Source of the DNA: Psammoneis japonica
Taxonomy: Eukaryota
DNA length: 56,353 nt
Direction of reading: 5' to 3'
NCBI GenBank assembly: GCA_008632985.1
Contig: QPGO01000319.1
Coordinates: 1 to 56,353 of the forward strand
The notes under the pieces were generated by a model. It had not been told where the DNA came from and ran no database searches. It saw nothing but the letters and a program-made list of their open reading frames with translations. Of the stretch, positions 3,770 through 40,454 are shown piece by piece. Made by a program: the position numbers and the translations under genes. Positions within the stretch are counted from its first letter, which is position 1. Every line of letters starts with the position of its first letter.

Positions 3770-5019
3770 CGATGATTCGGGTTAGACCTGGATCACGTGG
3801 TGTTTTTCATTCTGGTAACGAGAGGGAATCCTTGTTTGTGTGGAACAATCATTTAGCCTTTCTCTCTAACAATAGTGTATAACGTATAGTAGCTTTTCTA
3901 ATCAAATCAATATGGCACTCCATTGCTGTAATCTCTAAAATAGCGCTTGTTCGGCAAGTCGTAAATCTCTTCCGACAGAAGTGTCGCCTGTGTCGCTGCC
4001 CACATCTTTCGACCGTACTAAATGTAACAGTTTCATGTTGCAGTCCAACCGAGTTTTGATTTGTTGCTCCTACCAGATACTCGTAGATCTAGAGGGGAAA
4101 AGAACAGGTGTGCTCTCGAGATAGATAGGGCCCTAGAGTATCATGATGTTGTGTTTTTTGGTGCATGTCATAAATAGCTAGTTAACCGTTTCCTCCCGAG
4201 TGACTACAAATGACTACATTTTGTATTTAATTTTTAGATTTTACGTATACAAGCATGTAGTCATTATTCAAAGATATATTTCTTACATGAACAATTTCGT
4301 ATTGAAGCATGTCCAAATTAAATACGAAACGATAGTGCCTAGTGTAGGGCGGTAGACACATCAGATGTAGATGCAGGGTCATGCCATTAGTGTTGAACAG
4401 TAGCGTTAGGACCTAATTGATCCTACGGAATAGCCCATGGCTATGGAAGGCACCTATTTTGACAGAAGTTAAATAGGGGCAAAGTCATCGCTAAAATTGG
4501 TCCTCTACGTAGAGCTCCGTATAAGTTTGTCTGTCCATCGCCAGTTCGCGCCAACATTTATTTAGGGGAATGAACGAGTAGGCTAGTGTCTGCATCCTAA
4601 GTGATCAATCATCGCAGACGAAGCAACAATGTCTGCTCGCTCCACCTGTAGAGCAATATGAGACAACCACCAAGCACATAACAGCTCGTAGACACAGTCA
4701 TTGAAGAGACTTACTAATTAAATAGGAGATTTATACGTATATAAAAGCACAAATTTCTTATGTGATTTTAGATTTTTATTTCCATTGAATACAAAAAACA
4801 CGTTCGGGAGGAAACTGTTAACGTAGTACGAGACGACAATTGTTTGGAATTTTTTCTGGTGTGATTTCTACACGTTTCTACACAAAGCGATGGTCGCACT
4901 TCGGCTTGTCCCAGGACGCTATCAAATGCTGCGTTTCCTTCAACCAAGTGTCCTGCATTCTTAATTAATTGGTGTCTCCTTGACTTGCCCATGGAAAGAA
5001 ACTGCAAGTTTCGAGATTA

Positions 5020-7180: not shown

Positions 7181-7705
7181 ACTGAATCTACACAGATTTG
7201 GGTTGTACCAGGCCACGTAGAAAATGAACGGGCCGAGAACTGTGGTACGCCCACTTAAGTAGTGCCGACTTTGCCTTGAAGTACGGCACGGCCGCCAAAC
7301 ATCGAAATATTGTGAGGAGCGAACAGTCGGCTTGCGAACAGACGTCGTCCCCCAATGATCCATTATCATACTACCTAAAAAGCGATACTAAAAAATTGAG
7401 ACATTAATATTCTGTATAAAATAGATAAAAATTTATTTAGAGCAGACGTGTTATTGGTCATTAGCTCATGAAGTAACGATAATTTTTACTTAGCGTTCGC
7501 TATTTTTTTCTGCTCATTGAACGATACTATCAAATTTCGGAGACGAATCACTGTAGAACCAATACCAGCGCCTACGGTGATCTCTGTTGGGGGTGAAGCT
7601 TGTTGTGTCGTGTTGGAAGAGCGAAGCACATTCAACAAACACAACATGAAGCGAAGACTGAGACTTGCGCAACTAAAGAACAGATAATAACGTACCGCCC
7701 ACATT

Positions 7706-8535: not shown

Positions 8536-10345
8536 AGTACAATCGTGTTGTTCCTTTTTTATGCAAGTGACACTGCACTTTGCTATATTAGATCTTATTT
8601 TGTTACTAGATAGAAGAGACTTCAAATGTCACTCTGCCGCTACAAATTGATTCTAGCTAGCTCTCTAGTAGCTAGTAGAGCAAAGGACTTACCACCGCAC
8701 GACGCACGACTGACAAATTTTGACATAGACTCACGATGGAGAGTGGAGATCTACCGGCACCGGTGTCGCGAGACTGATTCGCCGCCGCCGCGTCCCGCGT
8801 CCTGGTCCCCACGTCCCCGCCCCCCCCCCCCCCCCCCCGGCAACACAACAAAACCTCAGTCCCATTCTTTCAACGACGTTTGAGTGCAAGCTTGACGCCG
8901 TTTTGTGCTCATTGCATTTGACAAGTCTCCTGCAGTTGCAATGAGGGAATTGCACTGGTTGCAAGATGTGTTTGCCGAAACGAACCCGAGCGAGGTCGAC
9001 AGCATCTGCATCTTGGCTGAAGAAATTGATGTCAAAGGCATCAAGCAATTGAGCCATTTTCTTCCCTCCTTTTGCAAATCAACAAACTTTCATTTGATTG
9101 CTTGTGCCACTGGTTCAGAGGGAATGGACTGTTTGTCTCGAGCCCTTTGGTCACTCCTCCCAAAGCTGTGTGTGCTTGATCCAACAAGATTGGGGATGAT
9201 GGCATCAAGCATTTGTTGAAAGTCATCCCTTTTCTTTTTCGGTTGGAGAAACTTGTGCTCAACCACAATGGCGTTGGCCCTGAGGGTGCAAAGTCCTTGT
9301 GCAAAGTGCTTGAACAGAGTGCAGAAATCGAGAGCATCGACCTCACAGGAAACTCAATCGGAGATGAAGGTGCAGAATGTCTTGGTGAGAGCTGTTGACA
9401 AAACATTGCAAACTGACAGGTTTTGTGCCTTGCTGGTTGTTGCGTTGGGCAAAAGAGAGACAAAACATTGGCCAGGAGTGTGAAAGAAAGCACATTCATT
9501 GACAGTCTTTGTCTTGATGACAATGACATTGGAGATGGTGGTGCAAGAGCCCTTGGACAAATGCTTGGGCAAAACAACAAAATCACATTTGTGGTTGTGT
9601 TGTGTGCCTCTTTTGGAGAAAAGGGGGACAGCTTGAATGTCACAATGTCATTCCCTGCATTTTGTGGCATGACACTGGCGAGGATCAAGTGTCTGAGATT
9701 GAAAGGGACCAGGAGAGATGTTGTGGGACATTTTGCAGTTGCTGCATCATGATTGGATTTCTGATGGCATTTGGGCCAAGGTGTTGGCATGGGTTGGCCA
9801 CAACCCCAACCTTCTTTTCCATGCAGTCAAGGCCAAACTGGATGTTGTCAAGAAAAGGATGTTGCTTTGTTCGCGTGGCAGCATGAGCCATGCATTGGTT
9901 CCAAATTTAAGGAGTGTGGGGGGGTGCACATGAGATGCATCCATCAACGTCACTTGGTGTTCATCGCATGTTTGCTGATCACCCAGAACAATCTTGCACA
10001 ATGCACTGTGTGTCTTTTGGCTTCAACCAAAGACCACTCTTTGTGCAGCGGAGGCATTGTCCCTGCTTGCCTGTTTGCAGTGTCTGGCAACCGACTGATG
10101 CTCTGTTCTTCCACACAAACCATCCATTGCAGTCACTCCCTTTCTTCAATCCACCAACAATGCTGCCTCTTCTGCAAATGCAGTTGAAATGCCTTTGCAC
10201 ATCTAAAGTGCAAAGGCACTTGCCAGGACACTGCAGTGCAGCTTCAATCAGACTCCACAAGTGCAGGCCATTGTTTGACCATGACGACACGGTTGCACAC
10301 TGGCACAACCTCTAGACTGACCAACACAGTCCTGCAAACAGATGC
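8255..10345 (+). repeat. Segmental duplication copy A (3' end of the 7706 gene + LRR gene + downstream DNA)
   Basis: Colinear with 14733-16875 (shared gccagaagaggagctgagc, gcacgactgacaaattt, gaggatcaagtgtctgagattgaaagggaccaggag, gaccatgacgac). Confidence 0.9.
8850..9930 (+). pseudogene. RNI-like leucine-rich-repeat pseudogene, copy A
   Basis: Frameshifted fragments LEKLVLNHNGVGPEGAKSLC, IDLTGNSIGDEGAECLG, LCLDDNDIGDGGARALG, and the C-terminal IWAKVLA...NLLF motif. Contains stops and no Tyr. Confidence 0.88.
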
Positions 10346-10399
10346 GTCATCTTCTCGTCATGGTCTTTGAATGAGCAAATCAAAGTTGCAAGTCAGACC

Positions 10400-12200
10400 A
10401 CATGTCAATGTTCCCTGATCTCTCACATGATGAGCCCAGCTCATGAAACACCCCCAGCTCTTTCTCATGTGCATGGATCCACTGCAAAATCCCTCACCAG
10501 AAGGGTCTCCTCCTCAACACCCACGTGCCAGTTTGGTCGCGCAGACTGAGACAGACTTCGTCTCTCTGCCTGTGGTGCACGCCAACACACCATCAGAAAA
10601 ATGAGGCTCATGATGACAAAAAGAGGCCCACATCTCTCTTGCAGCAAATGCCAATCTGCAAGCATTGCCACAGCATGCCACACAAGCGTGAGGGCTTGCT
10701 GTGGTCGTTGAATGGTTCTGGCAACTTGTTGCTCCCTTCCAAGTCTTCTGTCCTCTGGAGCCATTGTGCAAGGCAAAGCCCGCACATGGGACATTGCCTC
10801 CTCAACAAACATGCCTCAAAACTTGGTCATCTGTGCACTCAATCAACACACAACATGAACAACTTGACTGTTTGCACTGCACACAAACAGAACATGGTTG
10901 ACAAGAGCCAATGGCACCGCACTTTGAGCAAGCTGTGCACAATGTTCAGGAGTCCACAAACAAGCACCTTCCTTGTGGAAACATCACTTGCAACTGTCAT
11001 CTGCACAAAGGCCATGTTTTGGGCATGTCCAATTGCTTGCTTGATGCATCTCATGGCTTGGCTCTCAATGGTGTCTTTTGTGGCTGTTTTGCATTCACCT
11101 GCTGTCATGGATTCATCTTTGTCAATGTGCTTTTCATTGCCAAAGTCAATGTCTTCATTGCTTCCTTCTTGACTGCACTTTGCAAAATGGCAAGCATGTT
11201 GCTGCTTGGCCCCAAAACAGCACAGAATTGCATCGTTTCGTGAAACCAGGAAAGGCCACAGCATGCCAAGATGCCTGCTGATGTTTCTTTGGTTGCAAAA
11301 TCCAGCATCAAACAAACCTCTGCTCTTCAGTGGCATGTTCAGGGGCCACCAGCCATTGAAAACAACATTGTTCCAAAAGCACTTCTTGCTGCTCCCCAAA
11401 ATCCATTGAAGATCTGCTCAACCAATGTTGACTTGTTTTTTGATCATGCCAGCCCCATCTGGCCAGCTTGTTGCTTCAGCTTGGTGACTGAGTGTTTCGT
11501 CTGATCATTCTCCATCTCTTGTTTTCATGTTTTGTCACAAATGGGTTGGATGCCTGTTGCATCAAAAACTTCTAGACTTCCTTCAGATGCTCCCTGAAGT
11601 CGCCAAACTCTCTGACTTGTGCTCCTTTCTCAAAGCAGTGCTTGCAATTGCTCCTGTGATGTGCCCAACTTGCAACAAATGCCGCTCATTTCCCCTTTGC
11701 CTTTTGTTTGTGCAAGTTGATTTCTGCAAGCAGATGTGTCTCCTTTGAACCCACCATGTTTGGTTGCACCCAATTGAGTGGATTGATGATCCATGCTTCA
11801 AGGGATGTTTCAATTTGTCTGAGTGGGAGAGGGCTTCTTGAACTGGCATGGCTCTGGATGGGGTGTGCAATGTGCCAGAGTCTTGGGTTTGGTGCCAGCA
11901 TTTGTGGAATGACGATGCTTTGTTTGTGATGACAGAGTCAAGGCACAGGAGCTGAGCCACCGTCAAGTGAGAGAGCACTGAATTGGCTTGTGGGCAGCTG
12001 TGATTGTTTGATGAGGTTGTTGTGTTTGGCACAGTTTGAAGCCATTTACAACAGCATTTTGTTGTTGTGGTGCTCCTGCATTTGTTTCACAGATCCCACT
12101 CCTGTGTGGCATGAGATGGCATGTGACGGCCAGCCAGTCCCCTGGACAGTCTTCTTGGCAACACACAGACTTTGAGCATCATTTGGTTCTCTCAACAACT
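10400..12200 (-). pseudogene. Decayed ORF relic with a SAP-like helix-extension-helix motif
   Basis: Minus strand ~11495-11410 reads KHSVTKLKQQAGQMGLA*SKNKSTLVEQI, which fits the SAP consensus if CAC came from TAC and TGA from CGA. The rest is not identifiable. Confidence 0.4.
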
Positions 12201-12405
12201 TCAAAGACTTTTTGCCATGGTTTTGCAGAGCAAGCATCCAATGCAAACAGAAGCTGCAGTGTGCAGCGTGCAACTGCCATGCCGGCACGCACATTTGCAA
12301 TCACACACAACTTGTGCTGTCAATCGCGCCACAATCGTGGATGCGTGCGAAGGACAGAACGATCACACAGAGTTGATCGGAAGTCAAAAATTGCAAACAC
12401 GATCA

Positions 12406-14210
12406 ATGGATGATGTTGACATCTTGTGTGTCAGTGCCAGCTGTGTTCGGACAATCTGTTGTCATGACTGCATTCTCCGAAAGGCTTTTTGTTGTCTGCA
12501 GAAGCAAGCGCAGAAGCTCTGGGCCATTGAGGACTCATTCGGACAAACCAAAAATCACAGAGCAAAATTCAATCTCACAATTTCCACTTTTCGCACCTTG
12601 TTCTGATTTCATTTGCACTTGTTCTTCAAGCACAGTGCAAGTGCAATGTGCAGCTGCTGACAAGAGTTGGTGTGTCACGGCGACGTGTTGCAGCCTTTAA
12701 ATGTCACAAAGGGCGTGACAAAAACAACCTTTTGTCTGCATGCATGCTGCATTGCATTGCTGCAGACAACTCCCACTCGGGTTTCGAACCCCTGGCCTCC
12801 TGCCTAATGGCATCCACTGTCGAACGCGTAAAACTCTGTGCAGTTCTGCACGTTCCTTCGTACGCACCCACACTGTTTCGCCAAAACCGTGCAGTGTCAG
12901 CACACGTTAGTAAAGAGCCGCATGGACGCGTGACACATGGGGAGGAGTGCAATTTACAGCCACTGGTGAGAGCCAATGCATCACGGCGACGTGTTGCAGC
13001 CTTTAAATGTCACAAAGGGCGTGACAAAAACAACCTTTTGTCTGCATGCATGCTGCACAAGTGAGTGCTTGGCTGCTCCAATGACTTGAAACAAATTGGC
13101 TCCCCATGAGCAGTGTTTTGCAAGTGATGTGGCAGTGAGGTGGCCATGGTTGAGAGCAATGTGGTTGGTGCCTTTGAGAGACACCATTTGTTGTCCCAAC
13201 TCAGCACACATCTCGCAGAAGTGCCACAACAGTTTGCAGGAGGCTGTCTTTCTTGGTGCTCACACAAGTTGTGAGCATCATCATCACCCTGGATGTGAGC
13301 AAGATGGTGGCTGTCTCTCGCACTCTTGCTGGTCTGAAACCTTTTCGCTTTTTCTCATGCCACGCAAGCTTCACAGGGGCTGGTGCAGATGCTGTTGAAG
13401 ATCATTGTCAATTGATGGGATGGACACACCCCAGGCAGAAACACGTGTGTGAAAACTCTTTGTTCAAGGCAGGTGCTGCGCTTCTTGGCAGTGCTGCTCA
13501 TCTTCTTGCACGGGAGCACTCCAAGTGCTGGAGAGTGTGAGTCTGCTTCTGAAAGCCATTGTGGACAAGAGCCAGTGAGCACCATTTGAGTTGCTGCACA
13601 GCAAAGGTCTTCCACCATGGGGAAGGATCTTGCGGCACTTTTCATCAAAGAAGACGGCTCAAGCATTTTCCAACAGAAGGATGCAGTGGCAAGGATGCAC
13701 ACAAAATGACAAGAAAGATGCACTTCACAAGCAAACCCTTTGTCTTGGCTCAAAATCAGGGAACATTTGAGACATCAAGAGAGCTCAGCAGCTGTTGAAT
13801 GGTTGGCTGGAAGAAGCATGTGACAAGTGCTGAGACCTTTCTGAAATCAAATTGTGCAGCAGCACTGTTGCCTCTCCATTTTGTCTCAAATGAAGCAAAC
13901 AAAAGTTGGCTGCAGAGTTCCTTGTCAGAGGTGTTGTGTGTTTTGTGTTCTTGGACCAGGGTCAGCAGCAGGATTCAAACTGCATCAGCAGCCACATTGC
14001 AAATTGCACACATGGCAGAAATTGCACAACTTGCACAGGAGTCCAAGAGAATTTTGGCTCCTTTTGCCCTTGCTGTGACTGCAAAAATGACACAAAAGAG
14101 CAAAGAAAACTTCCAAAGTCAAGAGCTTGCACTGTCTCAAACAGATGCCACTGCATTGACTGACGCCAAGTTTTTGCAGACATCTCATTGTTTTGCACAT
14201 TTTTGCCTGT
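12406..14210 (+). pseudogene. Decayed ORF relic interrupted by the TRIM
   Basis: Protein-like stretches after restoring C/H to Y (MDDVDIL.VSAS.VRTI...; KMTRKM.FTSKPFVLAQNQGTFE). Family not recognised. Confidence 0.3.
12642..13057 (+). mobile_element. TRIM-like miniature LTR retroelement (416 bp)
   Basis: 110-bp LTRs 12642-12751 and 12948-13057, both TG...CA, with the last 77 bp identical. Polypurine tract ggggaggag (12939-12947) abuts the 3' LTR. 4-bp TSD caag at 12638-12641 and 13058-13061. No coding capacity. Confidence 0.85.
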
Positions 14211-14342
14211 AGTCTGTTGGGTCTTTTTGGTTTGACCCAAATCACCTGAGACACCTGCAACTTCACGTGATGTGTGAGCCACTGAATGGCTCACACTGGG
14301 AGCGGGGTCAGCTGGCCATGATGACACACAACTGTGCACCAG

Positions 14343-14730
14343 ACGCGTTCCAGGTCTAGGTGGGACCTCGTACTACTGAACTGTGACATCGACAGTTTTT
14401 TGAATCACGTCGTATGTCGCACACGTAGATTTCTACGTGATTTTTTCGACATTTTGTGTCATTTTACGGTACACTTATTGAGCGATCCGTCCAACAACTT
14501 TTGACATTTTTTGTTACAGCGCGATTCTATAATGTCTTAAGAATCGCGTAGGGCAGGCGCATTTGCAAAAACGTTGAGTGGCAAGAGGCATAATTGTACC
14601 ACAAACTTGGCAGTTTATTTGATGTTGAAGATAAATATATCCATTAATTAAATTCTCGTACTACGGAGCTCGCACGTAGAATTCTACGGGCCCAATGTCA
14701 CACGGAGTCCCACCTAGGACTGGAACCCGT
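14343..14730. mobile_element. MITE (388 bp) with 24-bp TIRs and a 3-bp CAG target-site duplication
   Basis: acgcgttccaggtctaggtgggac (14343-14366) matches the reverse complement of gtcccacctaggactggaacccgt (14707-14730) at 21/24. cag lies at 14340-14342 and 14731-14733. AT-rich non-coding interior. Confidence 0.82.
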
Positions 14731-14732
14731 CA

Positions 14733-15025
14733 GCAGCTGCATCCAAAAACATTCAAACAGTCACTCAGCACTCCACAGCAGTGCCAGAAGAGGAGCTGAG
14801 CATGCCAGCTCAAGAGCGGCCCTCTTTTTTGCTCGTGTTTTTGTGCATCAAGTTGGCAACGGAGATGCTGCTCTGGCTGTGAAATCTGAGCCCCAATCCA
14901 ATGGAACCGACCACATCAAAACAAGAGATGCCAGTTGGTGCAATGGCATCAAGCCACCCTTCAAATGAATGCTGCAGCTGCAAGGCAAAATCTTGACCCA
15001 CTTTCGTTGGCGAGAGGATGCTGGA
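14733..15025 (+). pseudogene. Mutated fragment of exon 2 of the 7706-8535 gene
   Basis: Aligns to 8255-8535 with indels, an in-frame-disrupting change, and TA/CG->TG/CA substitutions. Confidence 0.85.
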
Positions 15026-15321
15026 GAGAGAGTGGAGCCTTGTGTTGTCCCTGTTTTGTGCAAGTGATGCTGCACTTTGCTGTGCATTGGATCTTGTTTT
15101 GCAGCTGGACAGAAGAGACTTTAAATGCCACTTTGCTGCTGCAGTTGCACTCCACTGCAGGACCCACAAGACCAGCTGCTGCTGCTGCGGCTGCATGCTC
15201 TGCTGGAGAGCAGAATTGACCGGCTGGACTCTGTCAAAATCTGAGACGTGAGTGCAGTTTCTGCGTGTGCACGACTGACAAATTTCAAATTCTGACAACC
15301 ACCACATTGTCACATCCCATC

Positions 15322-16403
15322 ATGCCACAACAAACTCAACTGCCGCCAGTGGCCAGCCCCATTCTTTCACAAGTTTTGGGCAAGCTCAATGCCATTGTGT
15401 GCTTGTTGCATTTGACACGTCTCCTGTGGTTGCAAAACGAGGGAAATGTGAGCCGGTTGCAAGATGTGTTGGCCATGACGAAGCCAAGCGAAGTTGATTG
15501 CTTGGAAATCTTGCACGTTGATGATGATGGTGCCAAGCAATTGAGCCAAAAACTTCCCTGCTTTTGCAAATTAACAAACCTTTGTTTGACTGGTCGCAAC
15601 CTTGATTCAGAGGGCATGAAGCATTTGTGTCGAGCCCTTTTGTCGCTCCCAAAACTGTTTGTCCTTGGGTTGCCTTGCTGCGACATTGGGGATGACGGTG
15701 CAGCGTGTTTGTCAGAAGTCATCCCTTCTCTTTTTCGGCTGAAGGAACTCTTTCTGAGCTGCAACAGCATTGGCCCTGATGGTGCAAAGTCTTCACGCAA
15801 AGCCCGGGAACAGAGTGCAGAGTTTGAATGGGTCGACCTCTCAGGAAACTCCATCGGAAATCGAGGTGCAGAATGTCTTGGCAAACTGTTGATGAAAAAT
15901 CACAAACTGACAGGTTTGAGGCTGTCAAATTGTTGTGTTGGGCAAAACGGAGCTGAAGCATTGGTCAGGAGCGTGAACGAAAGCTCATCCATTGATGCTC
16001 TTGATCTTGATGGCAACGGCATTGGAGACGGTGGTGCAAGAGCCCTCGGACAAATGCTTGCATAAAACAACACAATCGTGGATGTGCGTGTGTCGCGGTT
16101 GGTGGGGAGGCGGCCCCAGTGGATTGCGTGAAGCAAAATTTGAAGGTCAATCCCTGCCATTTGTGGTACGGCATTAGCGAGGATCAAGTGTCTGAGATTG
16201 AAAGGGACCAGGAGATGTTGCGAGACATTTTGCGGTTGTTGCGTCATGATTCGATTCCTGATGGCATTTGGGCCAAGGTGTTGGCACGGGTTAGAAACAA
16301 CCCTAACCTTCTTTACCGTGTGGTCACGGCCAAACCGGATATTTTCAAGAAATGGGACCGCGCGTTGGTTCCGAATTCGAGGAGTAGCATGGGATGTATT
16401 TGA
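15322..16403 (+). pseudogene. RNI-like LRR pseudogene, copy B
   Basis: Tyr-free ORF with LxxLxLxxNxIGxxGAxxL repeats, ending at a premature TAA (16063-16065; copy A has CAA). The unmutated C-terminal IWAKVLARV...NLLYRVVTAKPDIF follows in another frame. Confidence 0.85.
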
Positions 16404-17108: not shown

Positions 17109-18518
17109 CTACTCCTTGTTCAATCCATCCTCGCCCGCCGCTGCCGCTGCTTGTAGTCGAGCTTCATCTTCTTCTTCTTGTTTCTTGCACACATTGGCCG
17201 CATACTGATCCGACACTTTACACTGCACACCAACATAATTGGTAATGTTCCCACCGGCATCTCTCAAGGCGGCAATAAAGAATTGATTCCAAAAGGTCGT
17301 TCCATCGACACGATAATTCAATAGACACACCGACATGTCGGTTCCTTCTTCAATCGATCGACGAATCTTTTCCACCGCCTTGGGGTCCGTTTCGGGTCCT
17401 TGTAAGAAACGACAATTGCGTCCCAACACTTGATCCAAGGTGTATCCCGTGAGATTTAAAAATCCCTGTGTCGCATAGACAATGGGGTTATCGGGAAGAG
17501 ACGGATCCGTCACGACAAAGTTTTGTTGTGCCGTTTGTAATGCCTTGATGAAACTAAAATCGGGATCGTCCAATACCTTGTTGGCATCGTTGGAATTGTT
17601 GGCAATGAGTGAATTTCCAGAGGACGACGCTGCCGCGGCAGCGTGTTGTTCTAAATTGGACAAAATGCCCTCGGCAGCTTCATTGCCCAAGTGAGAACGA
17701 ACCGAGGAACGGAGTTTTTCGTTTTCTTCCTTGAGGAGTGTTACGGATTGTTGGAGGGATTCGAGAAGGAACTTTTTGCGAATGCGAGAGCGTTTGGCGT
17801 GTTCGCGGTTGCGTTCTCTGTATGTGTATAGAGAGAAAAAGAGAGGGAGTTTTATGAGGTATTCATACAAAAGCCAAATCATCACCGCCATATGCTCAAA
17901 ACAACAGCAACAATACTAATTTTCAATTTCTTCTCACCTCCGCTCTACTTTTTGTTGTTCACTCATTTTTCGTTCCGATCCACCCCTCGACGAAGTGGAT
18001 GTGGATCGTCCACCCGTCTTGCGTTTCGGACTAGGCGATGGTGCCGTGGTGGCATATTGCATATGATGACGTTGTTGCGGTGGTTGAACAAAGGGTACCG
18101 CTGGAGGTGCTGCTGTACCCACTCCTCCAGCAGTATTACTCATGACGAGTGCCGGTGCACCGGGTTTGTCGAGATTGGTAGTTTGAATACCACCAGCCAC
18201 CGCCACAGGAACAAACGGTTGTTGTTGCGTCTGTGCTGTAGTTGCAGTTTGTTCTGTAGCAGGACGACTTGCAATGGGTGCGACGTGATTGCCTTCACCA
18301 CTTTTCAAAACGCCACTCGAATTAGCCTGATCATCCATAAATACCGTTTCACCGTCGGGAGTAAAGAAACAATCTCCAAAAATATCATCGAGATTGAGAG
18401 TGGCCGGTGTTCCGCGTTGTGCTACCGCCGCGGCTGCCGATGCCGACAAGTTGGGAACATCCGAAGCAAAGACAGGAACTGGTGGTTGTTGTTGTTGCTG
18501 TTGATTGGATGATGCCAT
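17109..18518 (-). CDS. AUREO1a: Aureochrome 1a (bZIP-LOV blue-light transcription factor), 2 exons, ~429 aa
   Basis: Exon 1 18518-17938, intron 17937-17818, exon 2 17817-17109. bZIP ERRERNREHAKRSRIRKKFLLESLQ. LOV domain with GRNCRFLQG, NFVVTDPSLPDNPIVYA, FWNQFFIAALRD. Confidence 0.96.
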
Positions 18519-31816: not shown

Positions 31817-32069
31817 GATGACTGATGTTGATGATGATTTATTTGTTGTTGCCCTTGTTATTAGGTCGCGTGATCGGGTGATGTTGTGTTGCCGGCTCCG
31901 CGTAAAATGGGGATGATAGATGTTGCGTTTTGGGGGACGTCTTCGGAAGTGAGACTGTCGAAGAAAGTTACGTAGAATTTGTACTAAAACAGTCTGTCAA
32001 TCAGTGCGATTGGGTATTTGGGACCTCTGGACAGATCCTACGTGTTTTCTTGCGCGTACAAAATGTACT

Positions 32070-33610
32070 GGGAAAACCCCCAAACGCACTGGCGATCAGA
32101 CCGCCTTCGACGATCTCACTTCCAAAGACGCCCCCCAGTTTCGGGATTCGCAATCATCAGTCGTGCGAAACAGGCAGTCGAATGGATCATGGATCGCCAA
32201 ACCAAAGAGCAGACCACGCACTCCAAGCTTCTGCTCAAGACAATGATGATGGACTCTACTCTCGCCCCTGATGAACAAAGGCATTGTCACCAGCTTGGCA
32301 GGCATTTGTGGAGAGGAAGAAGCAAATGCATGCAGGCACAAACATGTCTTTGCAAGTTGTGCTGGTGCTGCTCCTGCTCTGGGTGTTTGCAGGGATGCGC
32401 TGAGCGAGTTTCAAACTGGCATCATCAAAGAAAGATGGGAGGCTTCCCATCATGCTGTGCAAAAGTCATCATGAGGAAAAATGAGAAAGCCAGACTTGTG
32501 GTGATGAGTGCAAAAGGTCCCTGTGCTCTGTGACAAAGAACAGCTCACGACGCTCATCATCCACAATGGCGCGGGGAGGATCGGGCTTCTTTTGGCATTC
32601 TTGCATGTGCCATGCAGACAAGAATTGTCATTTGTTGTCATTCACCTCAAGGTCTTTCATGTTGATTTCATCAATTGTCTTGTTGTTGATGAGGTCATGG
32701 AATTCTGGGCATTTTTGTGAGACACTTCAAGTGCGTTCTCATTTCATCCATGCCACATGTCAACAATGCTGGCAGAGGCACACCCCACAAAGAATTCTGC
32801 ATTCAAATGCTTGCACATTGTGGCTTCCATCTCTTGTTGAGATTCCATGTGGATTGAAACTGCAGGTTTGAGCCAAAAAGACAATTGAGCACTGTCTGCC
32901 AAACTTGGCCAAAAGGAGTGGTCATCCTGGAGTGGCTTTGTTTCATTCTTGGAACCCTTTGTCACAGATGCACGGACATCACTTCCATCACTGATCATGG
33001 TGAGAAAGTCCTGCTCACTTCAATCAATCTCCGCACTCTTTTTTATGGCTTGAGTCGAGAGTCGAGGTTGAAACATCTGGCCTCATTTCTTCTCCAGCCC
33101 AGCATTGTGGAGGAGGAGTGTCCATCTAAGGTGAGATTGCCTTTGCCAGTGGCAACCACATGGAAGTTGTGGTTTTCCTCATGGCTCTGAACCAAGCAAG
33201 CTGGCAATGAGGGCCTTGTCATTGGGATCTTCCGCGCTGCGCCAGTGCAAAAAAGCCTGCATCATGAACGAAAGTGCAGGACACTTCAGAAGCCTCTGAC
33301 ACAAGAAATGCAAGTTGCGTGCTCAATTTTTCCAAAGTGTGCCTGTGCACTTTTGGGTGTCTTGTGAGAGTTTCAAAAAAGGCAAGGGCGGGGCTTTCTG
33401 TTGTCTTTTGCACATCTTTTGTGTGCAGCATGCACACTGCACTTGTCACAGAAAGTCAGCAGAAGCAAGTCCCACAGCTGTTGTCATTTGGCCGCCTGAT
33501 GGCATTCCCTTGTTGGATCCGGAATTTCCAAAATCCAAGATCGGAGGAAAGACTGCATTGGCGCGTGTGTTTCCGCATGGTCGAAAGGATCGAACGCACT
33601 GAGACAAACT
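32070..33610 (-). pseudogene. TpA-erased island 3 containing a decayed minus-strand ORF relic
   Basis: Only ~3 TA in 1.5 kb. Minus-strand protein-like fragments show C/H where Y is expected (FETLTRHPKVHRHTLEKL; SQKCPEFHDLINNKTIDEINMKDLE). Confidence 0.7.
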
Positions 33611-33659
33611 AACAGAAAGATCAGGTTATGGCGACACGGGTGGACGAGACGGCTTGCGA

Positions 33660-33673
33660 TTTTCCCGCCAAAA
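33660..33673 (+). promoter_or_regulatory. E2F-type site TTTTCCCGCCAAAA
   Basis: Matches the TTTSSCGC E2F consensus, ~130 bp upstream of the putative ATG (33803) of the SNF2-glycosylase gene. Confidence 0.55.
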
Positions 33674-33802
33674 ATTTCACCAAAGATCGCGGCAACAACG
33701 CATTCTCAATTCGGCCAGAGATAGCAGTGCATCTCGGATTCTTTCTCTCATACCCCTTTTGCTTTGCAATTGTCAACATTGAGCGAGGTTTATGCGTCTC
33801 TC

Positions 33803-36800
33803 ATGATTGGGTCAAAGGTTAGAAAGGTACGTCCGAGCTAGTTTAGTGCTGTGGGGACTGTGGAGCAAACGAATATGAAGGATTTCTCACAGAGCGGAAA
33901 CCCTCTCATCTCTCATTCATGTTTCCTTTGAAACGTATCTTTTGCAGTTCTTTAAGGGCCACGGCTATTTCGAAGGCACTGTCGTGTCTTACAAGGAATC
34001 CCTCGGTTATTATCTGGTTGTATACGAAGATGATGACGAAGAAGAGTTCACCGAGGAAAACCTACGGAAATTCCTGGTGGCAGATGATGATGATGCACCA
34101 GCAACGAGTGAAAGAAAGCGAAAAGCGGCGCAGAGCAAAGCGGTAACCGAGGACATGGAGGAATCGGAAATGTCTTCGGAGGAGGAGGAAGAAGAAGATG
34201 ACGAGTCGGACGAGTATTCTTACGTGTCAGATGCTTCTGCTGATGATCAAGACGAAATTGATTTCGAGTCCTTCATTGACAAAGAAGCTAAAACGTCGAC
34301 TCCAACGACGCCAAAACGAGTAGCCAGAGGCCGAAAGCCCGTCGCAGTTACGCCGTCTCCATCGTTGTCCCGTTCTACGAGTACGGTCAGTAGCTCCTTT
34401 TCTTCCAACAGTATTGCTCAACGTGGCCTACCCCGGGGTGCGCTTGGTCGATGCGCTCGTACAGGATTCACCATCCGAGCCCTCGAAAGCATTGCACCTC
34501 TAGTGGAATCATCAAGCTCAACCGCTACGCGGACTCCTCGCAAGCAACGAAAAGTAAGAAATGTGTCGGATCCACTGGCTGGACAGATCATGGTGATTGC
34601 TGCCGACGACGAGGGATTGTGCCCCGCTGAATTAGTCGGAAAGTCCTTTAATTCGGGCAGTGATCTTCACAAGGCCTTGGCGAAAGAACACCGTGGTGGT
34701 AACGCCGACAAGGCTTGTTTTGCCACGTATGAAATGGAGGCTATGGCAGATCCTGCCTTTGCACCGTGGGGGTTCATACAGGCTCGGCTTTCTTCGGCGG
34801 GACTCGACACCAAAGACACTACGCCAATGGCGGTAAAGATTAGCTACGATGAAGAAGAGGGGAGAATCGATGGCGATGTCGTGTGGTACGGTGACGCAGA
34901 GAGCGACTTTCATCTTGAAAACGACTTGGATTGGGCTTTGATTGAAGGGGACCGTCACTCGGACATTCCTCCTGTCCTTGTTGGCGTGCCACGGTCACTC
35001 CTCTACACCAAGCCGACAGAGACGGCACAAGTCAATATCGTTTCCGCAAGTTCCGAAGATATCCTGGAGGAAGAAGATGACAATGAAGGACGCGGTGGTG
35101 GTGAAAACGACCTCTTGCCCCCACCGTCAAACCATGTTGCTCAAATTCGTCTGCCGGCCTCCCTTCTTCAGAAATCCATTCGTCGCGGTAGGGGTATTTG
35201 TTCGCCAACCCCTCTCCTTGAAGCCTGCACCAAGCTCTTGCATCCGGATCATGTTCAACCAGGATCTACCTTGGCCATGCTCAAGGCTGTGTGGGGGTGT
35301 ATGCTTGTGGATGCTGCACCATTTCAGGAAGCTACAGGTTGTGCCGGTCTGGACACTCTTCTCCTACTCTCGCTGATTGCAAAAGCTGATCCACAATGGA
35401 GCATGCCGCCAAACATGCGTCGGTCTGTTATTTCGGCAGCGCTTAGAGCAGCATCTTCCACTCCGTCTCAACCTTGGGTAGGATATGTAGAGAGAGATGA
35501 GAAGTGGTGGGAACTTGAGTCGACGAGTTCTCTTACGGACGACGTTTTGAAAGCAACCAAGCTCAGAAACACTCTAAGGGCTACCCAAGCCGCAGCCGGA
35601 GGACGTGTCGCTTGGGGCCAGTGGAACAAGTTTGTCGGAGACACTTCGGCGGCAGCGGCCTTGGCCTATCTCAACCACGAAGAATGGGACGGTTCTCAGC
35701 TCCCCGCCCCTCCGGAGGCTAATGCCAACGAGGCTTCCCTGCTGACGGCTTGGGAACAAGGCAAATCTTTTTCAATCCCTACTGAGCCGCGGCTACAGCA
35801 TTTGGACCATGAGTGTCGTCTTTCGGCAGTGGAACCCACAGTCTTTCCGTACTCGCTAGTGCTTTTACAGGCAACGCTTGAAAACCCACCTTCTAGTTGG
35901 AAGAAGCACAGCTTGACTTCACTCGCAAGGCAGGTTCGAAAGTTGATATCCGAGGTGAATCCAAGAACACGCCAAAGAGTTCAGCTAGCTCGACTTGCCA
36001 CATGGGGAAAGGATAGCCCAAACACAAGGTCAACAACAGAACAGGACCAGAGTGAGAATGCTGAGTCCTACAAATCTTTCCGCGAAGTTGTGACTCCTAC
36101 TGGTACGTTGTCGGATGGCGAAACAGAAATTATCGACTGTTTCGAAGCAATCCAAAAGTTGCAGCTAGATCAGCTTGATGATGATACCGTTAAAGTCGAG
36201 GGCGCGGCAGATAATTCGACCATGACGCATTCAGACGAATCAGGTTTTCAATCATGCCTCCGGGTCAAGGCCGGGTCACCTCCTACTGCCTCTGATGGGA
36301 GAGTAGCGTTTCTGCTAGCATTTGCTTCTGCAGTCGAAATTGAGGTCGTCCCTGACCCAAAATCGCCGTCTGCGAAAGAAACTGTAAGCGTCATGTTTGC
36401 GGGAACCGAATCAGAACCACTTCTTGTTCAGCGCATTGGCAAAGCGCGTAAAGAAGGCCAAGAATTGGCAACCGCGGGTGGATCCTCCTCCGGTGCCACT
36501 GCTGTACCTTCGCTAGGTTATGTCCAACGTAACCGTTCTGTAGAAGAAAGCAAATTGATGGCAGCAGCAGAAGCTGAGGTTGCAAGAATGTGGGAAGGAG
36601 GAAGATCATTTTCATTGCCGATCCCTCCTCCCAATTTTCAGTGGGACCTGCCTCAAGTTGAGGCGCATGCTACAAGTAGCTGGGAAGATGCGGAAAGAGA
36701 TATACCTAGAACTGCAAAGCTTCTCGACGACGGAAACGGGAACAGGACTTGGCACTTCAGCGTTGGAGGTGTTGTGGTTAAACCATTTGATGCTCGCGCC

Positions 36801-39800
36801 GTAATATCGCCTTGTGCGCTAGACTTTGACGATGATTCTCATCCCGCAGTTCTTTTAGATCATGAACGAGATCGGCTACTGAGAATTTCTCTGTACGTTA
36901 AGGATGAAGAAGGCTCGGCAACTCCGCTCCCGCGTGGAGGGGAAGTGCTTGATACCATGTCTGCATTGCACCTGCTTGCGAACTCTACTAGAGCAAACGC
37001 GCCCAGCGAGGGCGTAGTCTTCAACTGGATGCCACTAGCATATGCAAGTGTCCTCCCTGCTCGAACTTGGCGAGACGCCCTCCTTGCTATTCGAACAAGA
37101 GATCGAGATCATGTTTTGCTGGGAAAAGGCATTCGAGCTGATGGCGCTGGCGCAGCTCGAGACATGACAGAAGGGGTGCTGGTGCGGCTCTTTCATGCCC
37201 TTGAAATGCTGTACCCCACGGCGTTGAGAAAGGAAGGTGCAATGAAATTCAGGGTTCGGCCAAGAGGTGGGGCGTACTTTCATATGATGGTATGTCTTGA
37301 ACGATTGGGACGCGATGGTCGTGAATTAGTCGCTGCCGCTAGTGCTCTGGAAAGTGATACGGCGAAGTCATCTACAGCAACTCTGAAGTCCTGCGGTTCA
37401 ACTGCGCTCGAGGAACATTCACCTCGCAGACGGCCTCGAAGACTTGCAGCTATAGCTGCCTCAAAGAAGGCTGCGTCTCAGCTTCAAGGAGAAGAAAATG
37501 GTGATGGCGCTCGGCCACGGAAACGCTTGAAGAGAGGTGACGATGATTACGACGATGCGTGCGCTGATATGGAGGACGACTTGAACTCTAGTGACGAGGA
37601 ATGTGGAGAGGATGACTGGCTTCCGATTCCGAAACTCAAAACCAGTCTCTGGCCGCATCAAGAGGCTTCAGTGTCAAAGGTATTGGAGGGAGTACGAGAA
37701 GGGAAACGAGGTCATGCGGATGCCTCGGCTGTTGGTTCGGGAAAGACGCTCACAGCCTTGGCGACCATCACTCGTCTTGCCAAATTCATTGAAGAGACGG
37801 GACGCTCGCGTCATGGTGTGCTTGTGATGTTGCCGACGAAGGCTCTCATCCGAGAATGGCTTTTGGAAATCGCGACTCATACAGAAGGTTTCAATGTCAG
37901 TGAACAGAGGGAAGACGGAAGTCTTTTCTCGTTAACATATGGCAAATCGGACCCACCTATCGACGGCAATGCTCTGGTCATATCGACCCTCGATCGTGTC
38001 TGCCGTCACCCATTTGTACGACAAGTGGCGTGGGACTTTGTTGTAATTGATGAGTGCCTGGCGGTGCAAAACGCTGCAGCCAAGAGGAATCCATCGGCAT
38101 GGCGTCAAATCGAGATTTCGACGTGTGGCTGCCTTATGTTGTCAGCGACTTTCTTCCGTTCCAAGTTTGACTCCTTGTTTTACATGATACGTATGCTTCG
38201 TTCTCCTCTTCCTAGGACAATGGAATGGCTGCCCGCCACAATCCATGAGCACATTGTCTGCCATGTCCCAGAAACTGACCGAACGTGGCAGCTGAAAGGG
38301 GAGATGGTACCGCTGAATCCACCGGATCTGAAAGAATATAGGGGCATCATTGAATCGTTCCGTCGCAGACAGCTTAACGAACGGGGGAACGTCGACGGTA
38401 GAACGCTATGGGTCGACCTTGAAGTTTTCCTACGGTCAAAGTACGAAGGCCGCGACACCAGATCGACGTATTGTGCCAGGTCCGTAATGAGCGATGCGTT
38501 TGCTAAATCAGCCAAGGGTCTGCTTGGAGAAGGGCGTCGTCCTCTCATTTTTGCTGACACGTCCCAGGAAGCAAGCTTCCTCGTTCGCACACTCTGCTCG
38601 GCGGGTCTTGATGCACGCTCGTGGGCGGATATAGCGTCTGAGAGGGTGGCATCTTCCGCCAGTAAAAGCAAGCAGGTCGAAAGCAACGGCAAGAGAGTCA
38701 TAGTAGCTGTCAAATCGATCGAGGGACAAGGTATCAACATGCAAGGTCATGCGGATGCTATTCTTTGCAGACCGACACCAGGGGATCACCTCGAACAGAT
38801 GAAAGGAAGAATCGATCGTCCCGGACAAAGGGCAAAGGACCTCATACTCGTGGTGCTCATGGCGGAGCACACCATCGAGGAAGCAAAGTTTGCGAATATC
38901 CGGCTGGCTGGAAATTTCTTCCGCGAGCGCTTAGCTCCAGTTGCATCGCGCTTCCGTGAACGACTAGACCTCGAAGCGACCATGGCTGCGGCGAATGGGA
39001 AAGCTAAGCTGAAGCGAGGTACCGTGAGTAGCACGTGGCAGCGCTTACTCGAAAAAGCAGGGCAATCTGGCGCTTTTGCAGAGCAAGACAAAGCTCCGGA
39101 TGACGAGGCGTCGAATAAAAGTGGTAACAGCACGGAAGTCGCTCCCTTGCTAGAAAACACAGTGTTGTCAGAAAAGAAGGATGATTGCGATGTGAGAAAA
39201 CCCAAAGCAGAACCCAAGTACAAACCGTTGAACAAGGTGATTCGAAATAAAGGCGATCCTCTTGCTGTCCGAGAGGCAAAGGCGCTTGCTAAAAGCGGGA
39301 GGGCGTCACGAGTCGTTCGTCAGTGGCTGTTTCCTCTAAAAGCACCTGTGACTGGACTGGCACAATTTTCCTTGGAGAGATTTTCCGACCAAAGCCCTCC
39401 CTTGGTCCTTGACCGCGAGACAGTCCAAAAGGCTGTGACTCATCTTTCGAAAAACTGTCCAAAGCTCGCCACCCTAATTGCCAGGGTTGGTGCAGACGCC
39501 CTTATCAACGACTGTGGGACTCCGAAGGCCCCGACACAAGCGAGCCTGTTTGATCGATGCTTGAGAGCAATAACATTCACGATGGTATCTGTGGATGCCG
39601 GCAATGCATTTCTTCGGCGACTTGCGATCAAGCTGGGAGTATGCATCGAGAACATGTCCCCAACTCGAAGAAAGCAGCACTTGACAAACTATCTGAAAGA
39701 TATTCAAGAGGCAGGCGACAGCGAGATTGAAGATCCACATGATTTGTTGAATGTTCTTCTGCAAGGATACCACAATGAAATTGTCTTCTCTCACGAACTC

Positions 39801-40454
39801 ATCGGAGAACTCGTCGACACCTGCGAAATTATTGATGGGAAACGGACGGGGTACCCGGTAAGTCTTGTGGAAGGGTACCAATTGTGTCGTCAGCGAAAAG
39901 TGCGCTTACCCTTCATTTCCTATGTGCATTAGCATCTTTGTGGCGTTTCTTTTCCTTGCGGCAAAAGTGATGATCCCGCGGTTTTTCTGCAAAAGGCTCG
40001 TGATCATGCCAAAGGAGGAACCGTGCCAGTCAGTGCCGGATTTTCGTCCCCAAAGGCTGGGTTTATCGTTTCTTTGGTGCAAGATTTCGTTTCTGGCAAA
40101 ATATCTGGCGAAAAGATTGCCAAGGCCTCGGATCGAGATGCAGCCAGAATGCTGATGGATTTGAAAGGCATTGGCGACTGGAGTGCCGGTGGGGTGCTGA
40201 TGCATTCGCTGTGTCGCGCTGACATTATGCTGTACGGCGATTTGACGGTTCGCAATTACTTGAACGACTTGTATGACATCAACCACGCTGACTCTTCCGA
40301 AACGTTATTGGAGTCTGCGGCCGATTTTGGTGACACCCGACAGAATCGCAATCTGATTGATGATGTCAGCAAGAAACATGGATGGGAACCGTATCGATCT
40401 GTTGTATGTCTCCTTATGTATCACTTGCAGGAAGAGAACTTGGTGTTGTTGTAG
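33803..40454 (+). CDS. ~2150-aa Tudor-like + SNF2-type ATPase + AlkA/HhH-GPD DNA glycosylase fusion, 3 exons
   Basis: Exons 33803-33826, 33948-39857 and 39933-40454 (GT-AG, in frame). Tudor-like IGSKVRKFFKGHGYFEGTVVSY...YLVVYEDDDEEE. Helicase motifs SAVGSGKT, VIDECL, LSAT, GQGINM, QMKGRIDRPGQ. Glycosylase motifs AVTHLSKNCPKLATLIARVG, LKGIGDWS (HhH), GDLTVR (catalytic Asp), WEPYRS. Confidence 0.88.

What the first reader, a model, noticed from the sequence alone, without database searches (positions are those of the whole stretch)
33803..40454. Tudor-like + SNF2 ATPase + AlkA-type DNA glycosylase fusion protein
Seen: one spliced reading frame joins an N-terminal Tudor-like module, ~1000 aa of unknown sequence (including SLLQKSIRRG, reminiscent of RarA/clamp-loader C-terminal helices), a compact divergent SNF2-like helicase (GSGKT, DECL instead of DExH, QMKGRIDRPGQ) and an HhH-GPD glycosylase (LKGIGDWS, GDLTVR, WEPYRS). 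The usual QQ motif appears replaced by TM, and a long insert precedes the HhH. Established: AlkA-family enzymes excise alkylated bases and hypoxanthine, the intermediate of A->G change; diatom DNMT5 also couples an SNF2 domain to a DNA-modifying enzyme. Inference: a chromatin-targeted, ATP-driven base-excision enzyme with possibly altered specificity, and a speculative candidate participant or antagonist in the TA-erasing process. A TA-less island sits immediately upstream, though that may be coincidence.
Basis: partly seen in the sequence, partly recalled or inferred. Interest (0 to 1): 0.75.

Follow-up and report, generated by a model that had tools for sequence, protein, structure and literature searches.

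The report
Giant-virus-type helicase fused to repair glycosylase
This diatom gene joins an uncharacterised ATP-driven DNA motor, otherwise found mainly in giant viruses, to a damaged-base-removing repair enzyme; the same fusion recurs in several unrelated groups of protists and has apparently never been studied.

Summary
The gene is real: three exons, 2151 aa, all quoted motifs present. Relatives confirm both introns, and the Seminavis robusta copy is one exon. The same fusion occurs in diatoms, a haptophyte, Picozoa, a thraustochytrid and three diplonemids; these rows form one branch of the helicase tree (100/99). The 'unknown 1000 aa' plus helicase is a ~1250-aa unit that stands alone, without glycosylase, in Mimiviridae and a few bacteria. 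Its ~870-aa N-region folds confidently (pLDDT 90.9) and has no clear solved match; a RarA-like helical bundle is only weakly supported. The glycosylase is Mag1/AlkA-like (Z 18) and keeps the catalytic Asp and Trp, but a diatom/haptophyte-type sub-branch replaces QQ by TM, adds a ~87-aa Cys/His insert and often a Tudor domain. In this genome it was the only intact Mag1/AlkA-like gene found. Best reading: a motor-coupled alkylated-base repair enzyme (about 0.58). The link to TpA erasure has no support: TA-less blocks are common here. I found no paper on the fusion (four searches, listings only), and no earlier scan note on it.

The parts
33803..33826 (+). Exon 1 (MIGSKVRK), start of the Tudor domain
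   Evidence: junction matched by P0004
33827..33947 (+). Intron 1, 121 nt, GT..AG
   Evidence: P0005 carries extra residues at the same place, an intron-like stretch read through by its gene caller
33948..39857 (+). Exon 2 (1970 aa): Tudor, N-region, SF2 ATPase, first half of the glycosylase
33951..34076 (+). PTM/DIR17-like Tudor domain
   Evidence: PF21743 31.4 bits, cut-off 27.2; present in 9 of 23 relatives
34401..37328 (+). Uncharacterised N-region shared with the giant-virus/bacterial stand-alone helicases (about 870 aa in the compact form)
   Evidence: hhalign to family alignment A6: probability 100, E 3e-92, 783 columns (A6 includes this window row); 142 relatives; no Pfam or PHROG hit; bacterial relative folds at pLDDT 90.9
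35136..35483 (+). Helical bundle with S-x-L-Q-K-x-I-R-R-G motif, RarA/MgsA C-terminal-like (weak)
   Evidence: 5 of the top 6 VIA-align rows are MgsA/RarA-type AAA ATPase chains or C-terminal fragments, Z 5.8-6.8; sequence profile test negative
37632..38948 (+). Compact SNF2-related SF2 ATPase: Walker A K1274, motif II DECL, motif III SATFF, motif VI QMKGRIDR
39393..40451 (+). Mag1/AlkA-like HhH-GPD glycosylase, split by intron 2; W2061, catalytic-position D2081 (codon 40239-40241), Y2132; FTMVS in place of xQQxS
39636..40034 (+). About 87-residue insert inside the glycosylase with conserved C..PHLC.....C motif (possible metal site), interrupted by intron 2
   Evidence: motif-to-HhH span 154-192 in 9 derived rows against 85-93 in 9 canonical rows; C 52, H 47, C 42, C 48 of 54 rows
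39858..39932 (+). Intron 2, 75 nt, in frame; its acceptor TAG is a stop, so retention cuts off the catalytic half
39933..40454 (+). Exon 3 (173 aa + stop): HhH, catalytic Asp, C-terminus
32240..33610 (.). Upstream TA-less, CG-poor island; a neighbour, not shown to be part of the gene's function
   Evidence: TpA o/e 0.03, CpG 0.36, TpG 1.6, CpA 1.8

Best explanation
The gene encodes a motor-coupled base-excision enzyme. An SNF2-related ATPase with a large N-terminal accessory region (a unit shared with giant viruses) moves along or opens duplex DNA. It carries a monofunctional Mag1/AlkA-type glycosylase that flips out and cuts alkylated bases (3-methyladenine and similar lesions), leaving an abasic site for ordinary base-excision repair. 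The Tudor domain and the insert are later additions in one sub-branch and may tune where it binds. Shown: the fusion, its conservation, the intact ATPase and glycosylase residues, the fold. Inferred: ATP hydrolysis, translocation, coupling, substrate.
For: Full-length fused relatives: 6 of 23 hits cover 100% of the query region at 53-63% identity. Named carriers are Seminavis, Chrysochromulina and Picozoa, and Hondaea, Diplonema, Artemidia and Lacrimia. The Seminavis gene spans 6993 nt = 2331 codons, so it is one exon. In 13 of 21 metagenome loci the helicase lies directly upstream; 7 are too short to tell and 1 is a weak match. The catalytic half of the glycosylase is as conserved as the ATPase (71-81% against 70-77% in the six closest relatives). 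Catalytic-position Asp 44 of 54 rows (8 gaps, 2 other), HhH Trp 47 of 54. Best folds: Deinococcus AlkA Z 18.0, S. pombe Mag1 Z 17.1. Trp stands where an OGG1-like gene has the lyase Lys. Walker A GK[TS] and DE were the selection for 154 family proteins; 142 of them have motif VI Q..GR..R. No MPG/AAG hit in this genome; the only other Mag1-like gene found lacks the segment with the catalytic Asp.
Against: No activity data and no RNA evidence from this organism. The pocket differs from Mag1: first Gln never kept (0 of 54), plug position Met in 50 of 54, and the MF and F positions after the HhH Trp are changed. S. pombe Mag2 also keeps an Asp at this place and is, from recall, inactive. Motif II is DECL, never DExH. 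The viral and bacterial forms work without any glycosylase, and none of 88 neighbouring ORFs scanned is a glycosylase, so the motor's own job is unknown. Genome searches can miss genes, so 'only intact copy' is a lower bound.
Confidence: 0.58

Rival explanations
1. The TM/insert/Tudor sub-branch has changed substrate. It excises a base tied to silenced chromatin (for example 3-methylcytosine made as a by-product of CG methylation, a T:G or other 5mC-derived lesion, or a modified base of viral DNA), and the motor provides access, much as the SNF2 domain serves DNMT5.
For: The changes are fixed across a long, fully supported branch (12 rows, 100/100) while identity stays high, which fits a selected new state. 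Tudor occurs only in this branch among rows scanned; one member has a SAP domain. Yeast Mag1 excises 3mC (PMC6746446, passages). Diatom DNMT5 pairs SNF2, and in some forms Tudor, with a DNA-modifying domain (PMC9998398, passages).
Against: A hydrophobic plug is not unusual: E. coli AlkA uses Leu125 (PMC1874660, passage; that this is the Met position is recalled). Tudor is missing from many members, including the Seminavis model. MBD4 and ROS1 folds score well below Mag1/AlkA (Z 6.6 and 12.0).
Confidence: 0.2
2. The glycosylase domain is a non-cutting damage or abasic-site sensor (Mag2-like) that recruits or switches on the motor.
For: The intercalating motif and pocket are altered. Mag2 keeps the Asp and changes the same motif to SQKLS; its inactivity is recalled, not checked.
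Against: Trp, Asp, the WxPYR motif and Tyr2141 are near-invariant among rows that reach them. No other intact Mag1/AlkA or MPG gene was found to do the job.
Confidence: 0.12
3. The enzyme drives the TpA>TpG/CpA erasure. It removes adenine (or hypoxanthine) at TpA in silenced repeats, and bypass of the abasic site with dCMP, as Rev1 does (recalled), fixes A>G.
For: The chemistry is coherent (recalled). The enzyme has a motor, a Tudor domain and an altered pocket. TA-less islands are real in this genome. The enzyme behind the Bigelowiella process is unknown; that preprint proposes an ADAT2-like deaminase and never mentions glycosylases.
Against: Adjacency is at chance level: 18 of 112 window bins are TA-less, and 2 of 8 other repair-gene loci touch TA-less DNA. 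1 of 169 bins in 11 lower-GC metagenome loci of this gene is TA-poor (gene-rich contigs, so a weak test). No Bigelowiella name appeared among named hits (most hits are unnamed, so weak). Normal excision of hypoxanthine would restore A, that is, oppose the process.
Confidence: 0.05
4. Helicase and glycosylase are separate genes joined only by the gene model.
For: An in-frame stop lies between the two ORFs, and no RNA from this organism was seen.
Against: The stop is the intron acceptor and falls inside the glycosylase domain, not between domains. Single-ORF relatives exist.
Confidence: 0.01

Closest known systems
Mag1 / AlkA-type 3-methyladenine DNA glycosylases (S. pombe Mag1 3s6i, Deinococcus AlkA 2yg8, 2h56)
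   Same: Fold (Z 17-18, about 205 aligned residues, rmsd 2.7-2.8), HhH GIGxW, catalytic-position Asp, no lyase Lys
   Different: Fused behind a ~1650-aa motor unit; xQQxS replaced by FTMVS; ~87-aa Cys/His insert; below the Pfam HhH-GPD cut-off
Mimiviridae 'DEAD/SNF2-like helicase' or 'putative helicase' (Megavirus AEQ32703, Moumouvirus AGC01847, Catovirus ARF08823) and Uabimicrobium BBM86832
   Same: Whole N-region plus DECL/SATFF/QxKGR ATPase, 32-39% identity in the ATPase
   Different: They stop about 60-90 residues after motif VI (one runs longer) and have no glycosylase or Tudor; their function is itself unstudied as far as I found
Snf2-family ATPases (SSO1653, CSB/ERCC6, ISWI, RapA)
   Same: Nearest solved sequences by profile: 1z63 E 1.8e-12, CSB 2.7e-9; Pfam SNF2-rel_dom over cut-off
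   Different: DECL instead of DExH; SATFF instead of TGTP; shorter span between motif II and VI (family median 207, window 251, against about 280-300 read from the alignments)
DNMT5 (SNF2-coupled CG methyltransferase of diatoms and fungi)
   Same: A DNA-modifying domain and an SNF2-type ATPase in one chain, Tudor in some forms (PMC9998398 passages)
   Different: Methyltransferase, not glycosylase; an analogy only, no homology of the ATPases was tested
RarA/MgsA/WRNIP1 C-terminal helical domain
   Same: About 95 residues superpose at Z 5.8-6.8; look-alike motifs S.LQK.IRRG / SA.IKS.RGSD and WRLF....ED / RRL.I..SED
   Different: No AAA+ module; sequence profile score not above shuffles

Membership tests
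HhH-GPD glycosylase superfamily, Mag1/AlkA group | Two-domain HhH-GPD fold | tested here: met
   model pLDDT 86.9; Z 18.0 and 17.1 to 2yg8 and 3s6i
HhH-GPD glycosylase superfamily, Mag1/AlkA group | HhH motif followed by Trp (monofunctional; no lyase Lys) | tested here: met
   LKGIGDW; Trp in 47 of 54 rows; aligned to Lys of an OGG1-like gene
HhH-GPD glycosylase superfamily, Mag1/AlkA group | Catalytic Asp after the GPD loop (AlkA Asp238; PMC1874660) | tested here: met
   D2081; 44 of 54 rows, 8 gaps, 2 other; aligned to the Asp of 2h56, Mag1 and 2yg8
Canonical Mag1-type subfamily | xQQ(L/I)S intercalating motif | tested here: not met
   FTMVS; first Gln 0 of 54, second Gln 4 of 54. So it is filed as a divergent Mag1-like branch, not as canonical Mag1
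Pfam PF00730 HhH-GPD | Gathering score 26.2 bits | tested here: not met
   12.6 bits on exon 3, no hit on the read-through; 8 complete fused relatives without the insert score 50-60 bits
HhH-GPD glycosylase superfamily, Mag1/AlkA group | Excision of 3mA, 7mG or hypoxanthine | not testable with these tools
   needs an assay
Snf2-family ATPases | SNF2-related RecA-like lobe 1 (Pfam PF00176 cut-off; nearest solved relatives) | tested here: met
   30 bits against 24.9; the top 9 solved sequences are SSO1653, CSB, SNF2/ISWI types. ResIII and DEAD also pass
Snf2-family ATPases | Motif II DExH (recalled) | tested here: not met
   DECL in 147 of 154 family proteins picked by a DEC pattern; invariant DECL in the 25-row alignment. 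So 'SNF2-related', not a member of a named remodeller subfamily
Snf2-family ATPases | Long helical insertion between the lobes (recalled) | tested here: inconclusive
   motif II to VI is 251 here, median 207 in the family, about 280-300 in SSO1653 and CSB; the ATPase was not folded
Snf2-family ATPases | Walker A Lys, motif II Asp-Glu, motif VI arginines | tested here: met
   invariant K, D, E, Q, G, R, R in 25 rows
Snf2-family ATPases | DNA-stimulated ATPase, translocation or remodelling | not testable with these tools
   needs an assay
Mimiviridae DECL-type helicase family (unnamed) | ~870-aa N-region followed by the DECL/SATFF ATPase | tested here: met
RarA/MgsA clamp-loader-clade ATPases | AAA+ ATPase module | tested here: not met
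   no AAA or MgsA_C Pfam hit in the window protein or in 45 family rows
RarA/MgsA clamp-loader-clade ATPases | C-terminal helical bundle | tested here: inconclusive
   Z 5.8-6.8, within the range the tool calls possibly a common arrangement; hhalign score 12.9 against shuffled mean 11.0, top 17.4
PTM/DIR17-like Tudor (PF21743) | Gathering score 27.2 bits | tested here: met
   31.4 bits; binding of a histone mark is not testable here

The most novel reading that the evidence does not exclude
Protists took a giant-virus-type DNA motor and coupled it to a glycosylase. In the diatom/haptophyte-type branch the rebuilt pocket, insert and Tudor domain turned it into a chromatin-targeted adenine glycosylase whose abasic sites are bypassed with dCMP, so it is the still unknown enzyme behind TpA>TpG/CpA hypermutation of repeats: a natural glycosylase-based genome editor.
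Probability: 0.05. Interest if true: 0.93.

Novelty: new variant of a known kind. Interest (0 to 1): 0.6.

Why it matters
Known Mag1/AlkA glycosylases find lesions by diffusion (recalled). A glycosylase covalently tied to an SF2 motor, kept in at least five distant protist groups, would be a different way to do base-excision repair in chromatin. It also gives the first functional hint for a common but unstudied giant-virus helicase family, whose ~870-aa N-region has a confident model and no clear solved relative. The derived pocket makes it a concrete candidate for a new substrate, and it can be tested with standard glycosylase and ATPase assays. If it touched hypoxanthine or adenine in repeats it would bear on the newly reported TpA hypermutation, but nothing here shows that.

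Tried and rejected
ESM Atlas: no usable hit for the window N-region or the Megavirus bundle region. Pfam, PHROGs and NCBIfam gave no family for the N-region. Foldseek against PDB gave no match at E<=0.001 for the N-region model; VIA-align best Z 6.8; the 879-residue model was searched whole, so single domains are under-tested and a new fold is not shown. Profile search of the bundle against PDB sequences found no RarA, and hhalign to 3 RarA sequences (3 of 5 loci gave a usable stretch) was not above 100 column shuffles. Four-copy complex prediction of the bundle: no verdict. Gene neighbours: no recurring partner and no glycosylase among 88 ORFs near 28 viral and prokaryotic loci. No phage match. 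A single-protein scan of viral contigs found nothing; the alignment scan did. Glycosylase search in viral records covered only 1 of 5 asked for, with no hit. No MgsA_C and no MPG hit in the own genome; absence is not shown. Stand-alone derived glycosylase: none recognised among 44 shorter hits; 24 reach helicase sequence by the script's rule, and 5 of the others checked further are pieces of the same fusion (one also reaches the helicase). Literature: (listings only) showed no paper on the fusion or the viral family; two searches returned nothing on Mag1 residues. Supplements were not read, and paywalled comparative-genomics reviews are outside the library, so a brief earlier mention cannot be excluded. 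Earlier scan notes: none by sequence or words. Direction of gene transfer: the tree is unrooted, so not decided.
Full report
Observation. Exons 33803-33826, 33948-39857 and 39933-40454 give a 2151-aa protein, with GT..AG introns of 121 and 75 nt, and all quoted motifs are at the expected places. The second intron is in frame and its acceptor TAG is the only stop. None of 12 aligned relatives has residues in its 25 codons, and the closest go straight from GYP to HLCG. In a model of the read-through glycosylase those codons are a low-confidence stretch. No RNA run was listed for this DNA, so splicing is shown by homology only. The organism is probably a diatom: the nearest named full-length relative is Seminavis robusta at 55%.

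The fusion is conserved. A search with residues 395-2168 found 23 proteins, 6 of them covering the whole region at 53-63% identity. Named carriers are Seminavis robusta, Chrysochromulina tobinii and Picozoa COSAG02, and Hondaea fermentalgiana, Diplonema papillatum, Artemidia motanka and Lacrimia lanifica. The Seminavis gene spans 6993 nt, exactly 2331 codons, so it is a single exon. Of 21 metagenome loci found with glycosylase motifs, 13 have the helicase directly upstream, 7 are too short to tell and 1 is a weak match. Databases label these proteins automatically as glycosylase, helicase or both. Four paper searches (listings only) showed no study of the fusion.

The middle region and the helicase are one unit shared with giant viruses. 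The same N-region plus ATPase, about 1200-1370 aa and without glycosylase, was found at 28 strong loci of 31 in viral contigs and at 9 loci in the GTDB collection: 2 complete Uabimicrobium chromosomes, 6 Verrucomicrobia MAG contigs and 1 archaeal MAG contig that looks viral. Named viral members are Megavirus, Moumouvirus, Catovirus, Hyperionvirus and Tupanvirus. A second search returned 88 such proteins. The window's N-region aligns to the family over 783 columns at probability 100 (the alignment includes the window row). In a 60-row helicase tree (three viral loci, duplicates and fragments left out), the 23 rows of fusion type form one side of a branch at 100/99. Of these, 18 carry a whole glycosylase, 3 a partial one and 2 none in the called protein. 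The 12 rows of the TM/insert type form a branch at 100/100 inside it. All 21 viral and 7 prokaryotic rows lie on the other side of a 100/100 branch; three glycosylase-free proteins of unknown source are the closest outsiders. One origin of the fusion is the simplest reading. The tree is unrooted, so it does not say who gave the gene to whom.

The ATPase. A profile finds SSO1653 (E 1.8e-12), CSB, ISWI and RapA first among solved structures, and Pfam SNF2-rel_dom passes its cut-off, as do ResIII and DEAD. The Walker A Lys, motif II Asp-Glu and motif VI arginines are invariant in 25 rows, and motif II is DECL throughout. The span from motif II to VI is short. It is SNF2-related and probably active, but it is not a member of a named remodeller subfamily.

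The N-region. It has no Pfam or PHROG family. The compact Uabimicrobium form folds at pLDDT 90.9, pTM 0.78. Foldseek finds nothing in the PDB; its matches at E<=0.001 among predicted viral structures are 9 proteins, six annotated as helicases of this kind and three shorter uncharacterised or unnamed ones. VIA-align puts MgsA/RarA-type chains in 5 of its top 6 rows, on residues 292-424, which hold the S.LQK.IRRG motif (Z 5.8-6.8). The region has no AAA+ module. Its function is open; a DNA-binding or scaffold role is inference.

The glycosylase. The model (pLDDT 86.9) matches Deinococcus AlkA (Z 18.0) and S. pombe Mag1 (Z 17.1) best, ahead of OGG, ROS1, EndoIII, MutY and MBD4. Trp2061 and Asp2081 align with the Trp and Asp of those enzymes; the AlkA triad Trp218/Asp238/Trp272 and its activity on hypoxanthine are taken from passages of PMC1874660. 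Picozoa, thraustochytrid and diplonemid forms have a canonical domain (xQQxS, Pfam 50-60 bits). The diatom/haptophyte-type branch has F-T/S/V-M-V/I-S (Met in 50 of 54 rows), an insert of about 87 residues with Cys 52, His 47, Cys 42 and Cys 48 of 54 rows, and Asp in 44 of 54 rows with 8 gaps. Its catalytic half is as conserved as the ATPase. In this genome six other HhH-GPD places were found; those I could read look like NTH, MUTYH and OGG1 types (motif reading by eye). MPG gave no hit, endonuclease V is present, and a stand-alone Mag1-like gene on C178 lacks the 19 residues that include the catalytic Asp. The fusion may therefore be the main alkylpurine glycosylase here.

How it most likely works. 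The ATPase moves on or opens DNA and delivers a monofunctional glycosylase that removes alkylated bases for ordinary repair (0.58). Rivals: a shifted, chromatin-linked substrate in the derived branch (0.2); a non-cutting sensor (0.12); the TpA mutator (0.05); separate genes (0.01). No step of the mechanism beyond structure and conservation is shown.

The TA-less island. It is real (3 TpA in 1371 nt, ending about 190 nt before the ATG). But about 20% of the window is TA-less, 16 of 20 kb of another contig are, and 2 of 8 other repair-gene loci touch such DNA. Among 169 500-nt bins in 11 lower-GC metagenome loci of this gene from other organisms, 1 is TA-poor; these are gene-rich contigs, so the test is weak. 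TpA hypermutation is described in Bigelowiella natans (bioRxiv 10.64898/2026.01.13.699255; parts 1-3 of 5 read). The authors propose an adenosine deaminase and do not mention glycosylases. I saw no Bigelowiella name among named hits, which is weak because most hits are unnamed. A glycosylase that removes hypoxanthine would oppose the process; one that removes adenine could drive it through abasic-site bypass (recalled chemistry). Neither has support here.

Comparison and verdict. It works like Mag1/AlkA at one end and like an Snf2-type motor at the other, and it is analogous in design to DNMT5 (PMC9998398, passages). It is not canonical Mag1 (QQ motif and Pfam cut-off not met), not a named Snf2 subfamily (DExH not met) and not RarA (no AAA+). 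It is a new variant of known kinds: an uncharacterised, conserved architecture that ties a giant-virus helicase family to base excision. Other papers seen as passages only: PMC6746446, PMC7051996, PMC12344493, PMC5389604, PMC8097291. Interest 0.6.

Noticed in passing
L085 (G000:C178, about 120,300-121,100): Stand-alone Mag1-like ORF (266 aa) lacks 19 residues after GIGQWSCDM, including the catalytic Asp; the frame stays open. Real deletion or assembly error not checked.
   Followed up: partly
G000:C157:67321-67814 (L005): Broken 500-nt fragment of the helicase, 75% identical to the gene, with stops. It is not TA-erased and sits in a ~3.5-kb normal gap between long TA-less blocks.
   Followed up: partly
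window 31924-32137: Palindromic ~214-nt element with 33-nt terminal inverted arms (MITE-like), at least 40 genomic matches, next to the TA-less island and itself TA-containing.
   Followed up: partly
window 4851-7200, 8701-14400, 14701-16300, 32001-33800: Four TA-less, CG-poor, TG/CA-rich blocks, about 20% of the window.
   Followed up: partly
L059 (G000:C120:202698-205841): A degenerate MutY-like fragment lies inside TA-less DNA, which suggests a hypermutated copy of a repair gene.
   Followed up: no
L046: Contig of an archaeal MAG carries the helicase beside an F-box/MORN gene and nests among viral rows; probably mis-binned giant-virus DNA.
   Followed up: partly
L007/L010, L015/L027, L028/L030: Three viral contigs carry two copies of the helicase each; the L030 copy is split into two ORFs.
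   Followed up: no
BFVD rows 6, 7, 9: Short (330-440 aa) uncharacterised viral proteins of Hyperionvirus, Pandoravirus and one unnamed entry match about 390 columns of the N-region model, suggesting that part of it also exists alone.
   Followed up: no
P0063/P0064/P0067 against P0065: A related organism appears to have an intron a few bases from the position of intron 2 (genomic calls end at GKRSG; longer forms read through).
   Followed up: no
G000, whole-genome searches: No hit for MgsA_C (WRNIP1) or MPG/AAG in this assembly; absence is not shown.
   Followed up: no
window 17112-17915 (-): bZIP plus PAS domains, an aureochrome-like or bZIP-PAS regulator (label recalled).
   Followed up: no
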